Position numbers and translations under genes: made by a program
Part shown: piece after piece, positions 19,101 to 20,053 of the stretch
How positions within the stretch are numbered: the first letter of the stretch is position 1
Layout of the letters: the number at the start of each line of letters is the position of its first letter
Source: Eledone cirrhosa
Lineage: Eukaryota
NCBI GenBank assembly: GCA_964016885.1
Contig: OZ024741.1
Span: forward strand, 123,752,001-123,816,000
Length of the DNA stretch: 64,000 nucleotides
Direction of reading: 5' to 3'
Notes under the pieces: generated by a model
Database searches by the model: none
Seen by the model: only the letters and a program-made list of their open reading frames with translations
What the model was told of the DNA's origin: nothing

Positions 19101-20050
19101 TAAAAACAAATAACGAAACGAAATTAAATTTCGTTTCGTTTGTAACTCACTTTTGTATGACTGACGCTTAAACAATAAAGTTAAAAGTGTACATCCACAT
19201 ATGTATACTGAAATACTAGTATGCATATAAATACACACACGTATACATATGTACACGTACCGAGTTTTTCACTGGACACTTTACTGTGAGTGTCCAGCTA
19301 GTCTGTATGTAACCAAACAGCAAACCGGGTTTTAGAGTCATACGGGTTTTCAAGGAAACACCTTTCCTCTATTCTCCAGAGAGCCAGACATAGAGGAAAG
19401 GTGTTTCCTTGAAAACCCGTATGACTCTAGAACCCGGTTTGTCTGTTTGGTTACATACAGACTAGCTGGACACTCACAGTAAAGTGTCCAGTGAAAAACT
19501 CGGTACATGTACATATGTATACGTGTGTGTATTTATATGCATACTAGTATTTCAGTATACATATGTGGATGTACACTTTTAACTTTATTGTTTAAGCGTC
19601 AGTCATACAAAAGTGAGTTACAAACGAAACGAAATTTAATTTCGTTTCGTTATTTGTTTTTATCGTTTCCGCTGAACCGGTGCGTACAACTCACGTTCTA
19701 TGCAAATTAGTCTGCCCACTACTAATTTTCATAGAAAAAGCATATAACGATATGTGCTTTTACGATTCTCTAGAGAAGCCGGAAGATGGGTATATATTGC
19801 TGATGAGATGTAATAACATCGAAACTAGTCCAATATTCCTGTCTGGCTCTCTGGAGAATAGAGGAAAGGTGTTTCCTTGAAAACCCGTATGACTCTAAAA
19901 CCCGGTTTGTCTGTTTGGTTACATACAGACTAGCTGGACACTCACAGTAAAGTGTCCAGTGAAAAACTCGGTACATGTACATATGTATACGTGTGTGTAT
20001 TTATATGCATACTAGTATTTCAGTATACATATGTGGATGTACACTTTTAA

Positions 20051-20053
<3 letters not shown>
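19101..20053. mobile_element. Retrozyme-like family F: ~1.4 tandem units (468 bp) on plus, with an inverted partial unit at 19101-19390
   Basis: 19391 repeats at 19859; 19101-19371 is the reverse complement of 19391-19661; near-identical copies; flanked by (TA)n. Confidence 0.9.
19779..19846 (+). ncRNA. Canonical type I hammerhead ribozyme (family F); predicted cleavage after 19830
   Basis: atattg-CUGAUGA-gatgt aata acatc-GAAA-CUAG-UC-caatat; stem I extends as a long rod (ttctctagaga/tctctggagaa). Confidence 0.93.

What the first reader, a model, noticed from the sequence alone, without database searches (positions are those of the whole stretch)
19101..20053. Young 468 bp retrozyme monomer with a textbook HHR; the inversion junction maps near the ribozyme-cleaved 5' end
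The HHR predicts cleavage after 19830 (GUC). The inverted minus copy begins at tgtctgg (19390), equivalent to about 10 nt after the cut. The plus copy begins at tagagg (19391), about 29 nt after the cut. Both arms therefore start just downstream of the self-cleavage site, as expected if RT ran to the end of a cleaved RNA and switched template. More than one unit was copied across an uncut HHR, which fits a circular or multimeric template. The copies are almost identical, so the insertion looks recent.
Basis: partly seen in the sequence, partly recalled or inferred. Interest (0 to 1): 0.85.

Follow-up and report, generated by a model that had tools for sequence, protein, structure and literature searches.

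The report
Two-armed hammerhead retrozyme with Penelope ends
This is one insertion of a 468-base protein-free repeat with a predicted self-cutting RNA motif, whose thousands of relatives sit in TA repeats as back-to-back arms ending at two fixed sites, one of each, likely because a borrowed Penelope-type enzyme copied an uncut, probably circular RNA from both ends of a DNA break, and the join between the arms is usually not at the ribozyme cut as first proposed.

Summary
The coordinates are right. A 468-nt non-coding unit carries a type I hammerhead; the arms start +10 and +28/29 after the predicted cut. The hammerhead has a one-pair, palindromic helix III (dimer type), so it is not textbook.

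In 122 end-anchored relatives, 1 of 210 inner ends lies at +1..+3 against 327 passes over the cut. 20 lie in +1..+30 (12.9 expected, p=0.036 uncorrected), and 1 of 89 two-armed loci has both ends there.

The fixed feature is the outer ends: one arm stops at +299-302, the other at +222-233, in (TA)n. 79 of 87 readable pairs are long+short and none is clearly like with like; a sister family gives 18 such pairs. This is the Penelope "tail" footprint. The two arms share a haplotype, and one insertion has 18 identical units across both arms.

Likely reading: dual target-primed reverse transcription on one uncut, probably circular RNA. Cleavage, circles and the partner enzyme are untested. This scan reported the same architecture before on other DNA of this and other genomes.

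The parts
18901..19102 (.). left (TA)n-rich target tract; no target-site duplication can be read
19100..19390 (-). inverted arm, unit +10..+301; carries the tail and ends at the LONG fixed end (+301)
19100..19177 (-). tail: the part of the long arm that the short arm lacks (about +224..+301), including the 13-bp hairpin at 19112-19140
19390..19390 (.). head-to-head junction; one base (A) fits both arms
19391..20053 (+). direct arm, 663 nt = 1.42 units, +29..+468 then +1..+223; ends at the SHORT fixed end
19391..19858 (+). one 468-nt period; 37% G+C; longest ATG ORF in the arm 70 aa; predicted fold -159.9 kcal/mol, z -9.6 (0 of 100 shuffles as stable)
19585..19594 (+). internal copy of the short-end site (+223..+232), inferred reverse-transcription start 1
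19623..19651 (+). 13-bp hairpin of the tail; a hairpin lies at the same place in the sister family
19661..19664 (+). internal copy of the long-end site (+299..+302), inferred reverse-transcription start 2
19765..19859 (+). type I hammerhead with long predicted helix I: proximal helix I 19794-19799/19831-19836, CUGAUGA 19800-19806, helix II 19807-19811/19816-19820, GAAA 19821-19824, one-pair helix III with palindromic ACUAGU 19824-19829, predicted cut after 19830
20053..20108 (.). right (TA)n target tract

Best explanation
This is one insertion of an abundant 468-nt non-coding hammerhead repeat (an animal non-LTR retrozyme) built as two head-to-head arms with one long and one short fixed outer end, likely written by a borrowed Penelope-type reverse transcriptase/endonuclease that primed from both ends of a cut TA tract on one uncut, probably circular RNA. 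Shown: architecture, fixed ends, strict long+short pairing, read-through of hammerheads, shared haplotype of the arms, excess microhomology at the join. Inferred steps: (1) tandem loci are transcribed and the hammerhead, working as a dimer through ACUAGU, cuts out monomers that are ligated to circles; (2) the enzyme, probably a dimer, binds the tail region and cuts both strands of (TA)n; (3) one DNA end primes at +301 and the other at +227/+232, the short-start enzyme leading and the long-start enzyme following and displacing its product; (4) each runs a variable distance (mean about 790 nt, up to many units); (5) the two cDNA ends are joined, often through a few complementary bases.
For: Pairing: 79 loci anchored on the long end gave 56 clear partner arms: 50 end at +222..+233, 4 are cut short elsewhere, 2 run off the fetch, 0 end at +301; 10 more have 7-15-nt partners that also end short; 13 have none found. 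63 fetches anchored on the short end gave 48 partners, 44 ending at +299..+302 and none at +220..+235. Non-redundant: 79 of 87 readable pairs are long+short. Sister family (434 nt): 18 long+short among 30 loci; 3 have one arm cut short, 9 one arm only. PMC11167929 shows two internal start sites bounding the tail and cutting and extension of both strands in vitro; PMC8557442 describes head-to-head insertions with the tail at one end and (TA)n targeting. Uncut template: 327 passes over +1 against 1 stop at +1..+3. One source for both arms: the partner is the closest arm for 60 of 128 arms and tied closest for 20; median distance 0.4% against 6.8% between loci. L100/L233 has 18 identical full units, 12 in one arm and 6 in the other, 4 changes from any other sampled unit. 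Differences inside insertions are strand-symmetric for A>G against T>C (51 vs 55) and transition-rich, like later DNA mutation. Overlap of 4 nt or more at 27 of 89 junctions against 11.8% of 600 random joins. Hammerhead helices I and II show compensatory changes at 5 of 12 pairs over 7 sequences from both families.
Against: No RNA evidence of expression, cleavage or circles was obtained. No autonomous partner was found: the 20 fetched copies of the Penelope-like family seen in this window share no significant similarity with the unit. Only 2 of 28 fetches with three or more full units have all units identical; long arrays hold variants shared by some units in repeating patterns (L089/L234, L153/L235, L072, L141), which a single monomer circle does not give unless blocks were duplicated later. 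Raw within-locus divergence (median 1.2-1.3%) is not below nearest-neighbour divergence (0.9%, a minimum over many). A shared haplotype also follows if one source locus dominated expression at the time. One pair (L175, partner ending +205 in TA-like sequence) could be an eroded short+short pair. C>T against G>A is uneven (70 vs 112, p=0.037) and unexplained.
Confidence: 0.6

Rival explanations
1. Same enzyme and same two priming sites, but the template is an uncut linear multimer transcribed from a long array (or two RNAs from one source locus), not a circle.
For: Arrays of 30 or more units exist and could be sources. PMC11167929 found uncleaved RNA to be the dominant substrate and cleavage dispensable in vitro. 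The weak helix III and the many GUU copies (42 of 122 loci) suggest slow cleavage. Units within long arrays are often mosaic.
Against: 18 identical units over two arms with a haplotype seen nowhere else in the sample need an equally uniform parent array of 13 or more units. Same-arm and cross-arm divergence are equal, as for units identical at insertion. Related animal retrozymes are largely circular in vivo (PMC7229834).
Confidence: 0.2
2. One reading: reverse transcription runs off the ribozyme-cleaved 5' end of the RNA, is trimmed by 10-30 nt and switches template, which makes the inversion.
For: Both ends here lie at +10 and +28/29. Small excess of ends in +1..+30 (20 vs 12.9) and a step across the cut (20 vs 9). 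13 of 60 ends in the selected set of closest relatives.
Against: 1 of 210 ends at +1..+3; 1 of 89 loci with both ends in +1..+30; 327 read-throughs. In the added short-anchored loci alone the excess is 7 vs 4.6, p=0.18. The plus arm here crossed one cut site. A template switch gives no reason for each arm to have its own fixed, TA-joined outer end.
Confidence: 0.08
3. Multimers and their uniformity arose after insertion by satellite-type duplication and gene conversion; the original insertions were short.
For: Repeating blocks of two or three units in long arrays (L031, L072, L235). Li et al. 2026 propose local amplification.
Against: 27 of 89 two-armed loci have both arms longer than one unit and 49 cross a cut site in both arms. 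The number of cut sites crossed falls off smoothly from one (96 arms) to two (40) to three (11). Partial tandems such as this one (1.42 units) keep fixed outer ends. This probably adds to the longest arrays only.
Confidence: 0.07
4. One priming event followed by self-priming (snap-back) makes a mirror copy, and the endonuclease trims one end to leave the tail, as suggested for Penelope inversions (PMC3846280, PMC8557442).
For: 8 of 89 two-armed loci are mirror-like. The two inner ends are slightly closer than permuted pairs (97.6 vs 114.7 nt, p=0.025). Several junctions lie in the tail hairpin.
Against: Arm lengths are uncorrelated (rho 0.01, n=89) and the short-end arm is the longer one in 42 of 89. 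Here the arms are 291 and 663 nt.
Confidence: 0.05

Closest known systems
Animal non-LTR retrozymes (Cervera and de la Pena 2020, PMC7229834: parts 2-4 of 6 and term passages read; Li, Clavereau and Pollet 2026, 10.64898/2026.07.22.740005: parts 1-3 of 5, the main text, read)
   Same: Small non-coding tandem unit, low G+C (37%), one type I hammerhead per unit, strongly self-paired, thousands of copies, Penelope-like elements in the same genome.
   Different: Neither text describes head-to-head arms, fixed ends or a tail ('inverted': 0 hits in PMC7229834; 1 hit, in a reference title, and 'tail' 0 in Li et al.). Here 66 of 79 long-end-anchored loci have an inverted partner arm. (TA)n target, no readable duplication. 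Expression and circles are shown there and untested here. Their supplements were not seen.
Endonuclease-bearing Penelope-like elements (Craig et al. 2021, PMC8557442: passages; Arkhipova et al. 2013, PMC3846280: passages; Frangieh et al. 2024, PMC11167929: parts 1-2 of 4, the main text)
   Same: Partial tandems, inverted 5'-truncated arm, tail at one end, two internal start sites downstream of the hammerhead, AT-rich or (TA)n target, microhomology joins.
   Different: No ORF. The tail is 69-74 nt (56 nt in the sister family) against 30-40 nt. The papers call the tail optional or 'often' at one end, and Frangieh et al. saw no strand difference in start site; here the pairing is counted and near-strict. 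Both arms can be multimers.
Non-autonomous Chlamys elements such as MRC1 (PMC8557442, passage)
   Same: Non-autonomous Penelope-like elements forming multicopy head-to-tail insertions.
   Different: [quoted passage not shown]
Newt satellite 2 / axolotl HHR_Amex1 hammerhead (PMC7229834, section read)
   Same: One-pair helix III capped by a palindromic tetraloop. Two copies are predicted to form a 6-bp duplex (-6.2 kcal/mol).
   Different: Dimer cleavage is measured there and only predicted here. The host is a different animal, probably a cephalopod (inference from genome make-up and earlier scan notes, not tested).

Membership tests
Animal non-LTR retrozyme | type I hammerhead in each small tandem unit | tested here: met
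   9,731 cores of this type, both families, at about 468-nt spacing where listed
Animal non-LTR retrozyme | non-coding, G+C below 50%, strongly self-paired | tested here: met
   37% G+C, longest ATG ORF 70 aa; z -9.6
Animal non-LTR retrozyme | two or more consecutive complete hammerheads (Li et al.'s 'active' rule) | tested here: inconclusive
   this locus has one hammerhead; many family loci have two or more
Animal non-LTR retrozyme | self-cleavage of the transcript | not testable with these tools
   needs in vitro transcription
Animal non-LTR retrozyme | expressed as linear and circular monomer RNA | not testable with these tools
   no RNA holder listed
Animal non-LTR retrozyme | target-site duplication longer than 4 bp when present | tested here: inconclusive
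   both flanks are (TA)n
Type I hammerhead | CUGAnGA / GAAA / NUH core and helices I and II | tested here: met
   91.7% of cells paired, 5 of 12 pairs with compensatory change, 7 related sequences only
Type I hammerhead | stable helix III within one motif; Rfam gathering score | tested here: not met
   one pair plus palindromic loop; 32.9 bits against 52
Type I hammerhead | loop 1 - loop 2 tertiary contacts | not tested
   not examined
Penelope-like insertion footprint | head-to-head inverted 5'-truncated arm | tested here: met
   66 of 79 long-end-anchored loci
Penelope-like insertion footprint | two fixed 3' ends with the tail at one end only | tested here: met
   79 of 87; 18 pairs in the sister family; tail longer than the published 30-40 nt
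Penelope-like insertion footprint | microsatellite target | tested here: met
   flanks printed, where loci were not chosen by their ends; 2,307 exact long-end-to-TA joins
Autonomous Penelope-like element | ORF with reverse transcriptase and GIY-YIG endonuclease | tested here: not met
   no ORF in the unit; none of the 60 long-end loci ran from the unit into other element sequence that I recognised (segment maps only, no ORF scan of flanks)
Derivative of a specific autonomous pLTR | sequence similarity to the terminal repeat of an autonomous family | tested here: inconclusive
   only 20 copies of one family tried, no significant match; 31,103 candidate places for that protein remain unexamined

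The most novel reading that the evidence does not exclude
A Penelope reverse-transcriptase dimer sits on one small RNA circle and starts two strands at two fixed sites about 70 nt apart, one from each end of the cut DNA. Both enzymes roll round the same circle, leader and follower. That would explain the Penelope tail, the head-to-head inversion and retrozyme multimers as one reaction.
Probability: 0.4. Interest if true: 0.8.

Novelty: new variant of a known kind. Interest (0 to 1): 0.52.

Why it matters
How Penelope-like elements make tandem/inverted insertions with a one-sided tail is stated as open (PMC8557442), and their role in moving animal retrozymes rests on co-occurrence and terminal-repeat similarity (PMC7229834; Li et al. 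2026). This family gives a counted rule that any model must meet: one long and one short start per insertion, independent arm lengths, one haplotype, an uncut template. It also gives a 468-nt substrate with mapped start sites for the existing in vitro assay. The element class is known, and the particular claim of this finding, a junction at the cleavage site, does not hold in general.

Tried and rejected
Rfam at gathering scores: 0 matches in the window. No RNA holder listed among 6 runs; this is no evidence on expression. No read or contig overlay was obtained, so the junction is not confirmed outside the assembly. Stops near the partner's priming site (+200..+310), a possible sign of one shared circle: 38 vs 23.9 in the first set (p=0.002, window chosen after seeing the data) but 12 vs 12.8 in the second set, so dropped. 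More stops after the cut in GUC than in GUU copies: 8 vs 7.0 and 5 vs 4.3; the split is biased because it needs a hammerhead in the locus. RNA-editing scars among units of one insertion: A>G 51, T>C 55, none seen. A cluster of inner ends near +327 was mostly an alignment artefact of a 3-nt indel. Within-locus against nearest-neighbour divergence was uninformative. Rare alleles fixed in both arms: 22 of 71 loci, suggestive only, because about 130 of more than 2,300 insertions were sampled. Partner search: the degenerate Penelope-like element at 32.2-35.2 kb has an unrelated terminal repeat; Pfam gave no hit for its three frames; a family accession recalled from memory was not in the library. 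The bacterial promoter scan is not meaningful here and was used only for the hairpin coordinates. The short-end pattern count (705) counts overlapping matches and one subfamily only, so it was not compared with the long-end count. Rows dropped before counts: duplicate fetches of one insertion; segmental duplicates (L042, L155, L170, L181); four fetches at an edge, at an N gap or beside another insertion (L153, L174, L178, L182); three inner ends corrected by eye (L057, L087, L130); 10 tiny arms left out; L226's second 'arm' is a simple-repeat hit. Paper searches listed no paper on two-armed retrozymes or counted end pairing; subscription journals and supplements were not covered.

Full report
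Observation. With +1 at window 19831, the first base after the predicted GUC cut, the minus arm 19390 to 19100 is unit +10..+301. The plus arm 19390/19391 to 20053 is +28/29..+468 followed by +1..+223, and it crosses one intact hammerhead. Both outer ends join (TA)n. The period is 468 nt, 37% G+C, with no ORF above 70 aa, and it folds far better than shuffles (z -9.6, 0 of 100). The hammerhead has the full core. Helices I and II carry compensatory changes at 5 of 12 pairs over 7 sequences from this family and a sister family (few, related sequences). Helix III is one pair round a palindromic loop. Two motifs are predicted to pair through ACUAGU, like the axolotl and newt motifs that cleave well only as dimers (PMC7229834). 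Rfam finds HH9 at E 6.4e-7, below its gathering score.

Family. The unit has 797 candidate places in the 3.0-Gb genome, of which 39 were scored. The exact 31-nt core occurs 1,463 times, a looser core 9,731 times, both families together, and the exact long end joined to TA 2,307 times; reversed controls gave 0. I fetched about 180 stretches: the best matches, the 35 places among the first 100 core hits listed on contig C1, 79 of the first 80 long-end places on C1 (one segmental duplicate dropped), and 63 short-end places on C1. All end-anchored statistics therefore come from one contig.

I mapped each arm's inner end against a panel of real units and counted ends against bases at risk. In 79 long-end-anchored loci, 13 of 144 ends lie in +1..+30 (8.9 expected, p=0.11). 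Pooled with 43 further short-end-anchored loci and without tiny arms, 20 of 210 lie there (12.9 expected, p=0.036 uncorrected), 1 lies at +1..+3, arms pass +1 327 times, and 1 of 89 two-armed loci has both ends in +1..+30. The junction is thus spread round the unit and this locus is a rare case. Against my reading: there are 20 ends just after the cut and 9 just before (p=0.042). In the 34 loci ranked closest to this copy, 13 of 60 ends are in +1..+30 against a simulated 7% (p=2e-4). That set is selected by an unknown ranking, includes this locus, and is also enriched just before the cut (8 vs 3.5). A minority of stops near the ribozyme remains possible. It could reflect cleaved or nicked RNA, or stalling in the long helix whose 3' strand is +1..+29.

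What is fixed. The outer ends fall at two sites, +299..+302 and +222..+233. Anchored on the long end, 56 of 79 loci have a clear inverted partner: 50 end short, 4 are cut elsewhere, 2 leave the fetch, and none ends long. Ten more have 7-15-nt partners ending short, and 13 have none found. Anchored on the short end, 44 of 48 partners end long and none in +220..+235; one partner ending at +205 (L175) might be an eroded short end. Without redundancy, 79 of 87 readable pairs are long+short. Loci chosen by the hammerhead core or by similarity, not by ends, show the same pattern. A 434-nt sister family at window 9743-10840 (about 65% identical; 2,004 candidates) has homologous ends at +280 and about +224: 18 long+short pairs among 30 loci, 3 with one arm cut short, 9 with one arm. 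This is the Penelope footprint: an inverted 5'-truncated arm and a tail at one end (PMC8557442; PMC3846280), where the tail lies between two internal start sites of reverse transcription and both DNA strands are cut and extended (PMC11167929). The window's own arms obey the rule.

How the arms relate. Their lengths are uncorrelated (rho 0.01), the short-end arm is the longer in 42 of 89, and only 8 of 89 are mirror-like, which argues against snap-back copying. Junction overlaps of 4 nt or more occur in 27 of 89 against 11.8% of random joins (p=3e-6). The partner arm is the closest or tied-closest arm for 80 of 128 arms, at 0.4% against 6.8% between loci. One insertion has 18 identical full units, 12 in one arm and 6 in the other, 4 changes from any other unit sampled. 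Differences within insertions show no A>G strand bias and look like later DNA mutation. Not all fits a single monomer circle: only 2 of 28 multi-unit fetches are wholly uniform, and long arrays hold variants shared among units in blocks. That needs later duplication, multimeric templates or switching between RNAs. Assembly smoothing could also make arrays look uniform.

Mechanism. The best reading is that a Penelope-type protein, probably a dimer, cuts both strands of (TA)n, primes one end at +301 and the other at +227/+232 on one uncut RNA, runs a variable distance on each, and the two products are joined by short complementarity. A circle is the more likely template (about 0.6 for the whole model; 0.2 for an uncut linear multimer). 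The hammerhead then acts earlier, in making monomers and circles, and does not set the junction. All enzymatic steps are inferred. No RNA run was listed, the junction was not checked in independent reads, and no autonomous partner was found: the genome has many Penelope-like ORFs (31,103 candidates for one protein piece), but the 20 copies examined share no significant similarity with the unit.

Comparison and novelty. It works like an animal non-LTR retrozyme and meets the sequence criteria; cleavage and circles are untested. It is not an autonomous Penelope element. The two retrozyme papers read propose Penelope mobilisation and tandem cDNA from circles but do not describe two arms or tails. 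The Penelope papers describe the footprint without counting the pairing. Seven searches listed nothing closer; supplements and subscription journals were not seen. Earlier notes of this scan describe the same two-armed design in other families of this and other genomes. I read them after my own counts and do not take them as support. Verdict: a real element, a new variant of a known kind, useful as a constraint on an open mechanism; the specific junction claim is not general. Interest 0.52.

Noticed in passing
window 9743-10840: Sister retrozyme family, 434-nt unit, about 65% identical, hammerhead with GUA triplet and a U-U pair at the base of helix II; head-to-head; ends at +280 and about +224.
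   Followed up: yes
window 32250-35180 (-): Degenerate Penelope-like element: RT, thumb and GIY-YIG-like frames broken by stops, a Cys-rich linker (Neptune-like, label recalled), inverted terminal arms that also seem to end at two different points.
   Followed up: partly
window 17709-17931: Small head-to-head palindrome in TA tracts, with about 80 extra nt at the left end only; looks like another Penelope-type end with a one-sided tail; CUGA...GAAA on the minus strand.
   Followed up: no
window 18053-18409: 172-nt inverted arms (92%) with a hammerhead-like motif at 18304 (palindromic AUAUAU helix III); related motifs at 25440 and 36776.
   Followed up: no
window 20109-20240: Short structured segment directly after the right TA tract, probably the end of another TA-targeting element; similar sequence flanks several fetched loci.
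   Followed up: no
window 20370-21950 (+): Broken LINE with an apurinic endonuclease domain (PF14529, E 9e-12); its left boundary sequence recurs inverted near 18960.
   Followed up: partly
window 50751 (-) and 50877 (+), 14211 (-), 4174 (-): Further hammerhead-like motifs, one pair arranged head-to-head.
   Followed up: no
L188 (G000:C1:80291321-80294764): A different hammerhead tandem with about 310-nt spacing, four motifs, inside a Penelope-like locus.
   Followed up: no
L072, L031, L089/L234, L153/L235, L141: Long arrays with alternating or block-repeated unit variants; L072 alternates units with and without a 19-nt deletion just after the cut.
   Followed up: partly
L008, L013, L074, L048, L099, L037: Six inner ends fall 3-8 nt before the cut, three at the same base (+461), at the edge of the ACUAGU palindrome; unexplained.
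   Followed up: no
family-wide: 42 of 122 loci carry GUU rather than GUC at the cut, often with a compensatory change in helix II.
   Followed up: partly
window 59700-63940: Broken LINE with endonuclease- and RT-like frames on the minus strand; window 6595-6984 and 8763-9152 encode identical frames, a local duplication.
   Followed up: no
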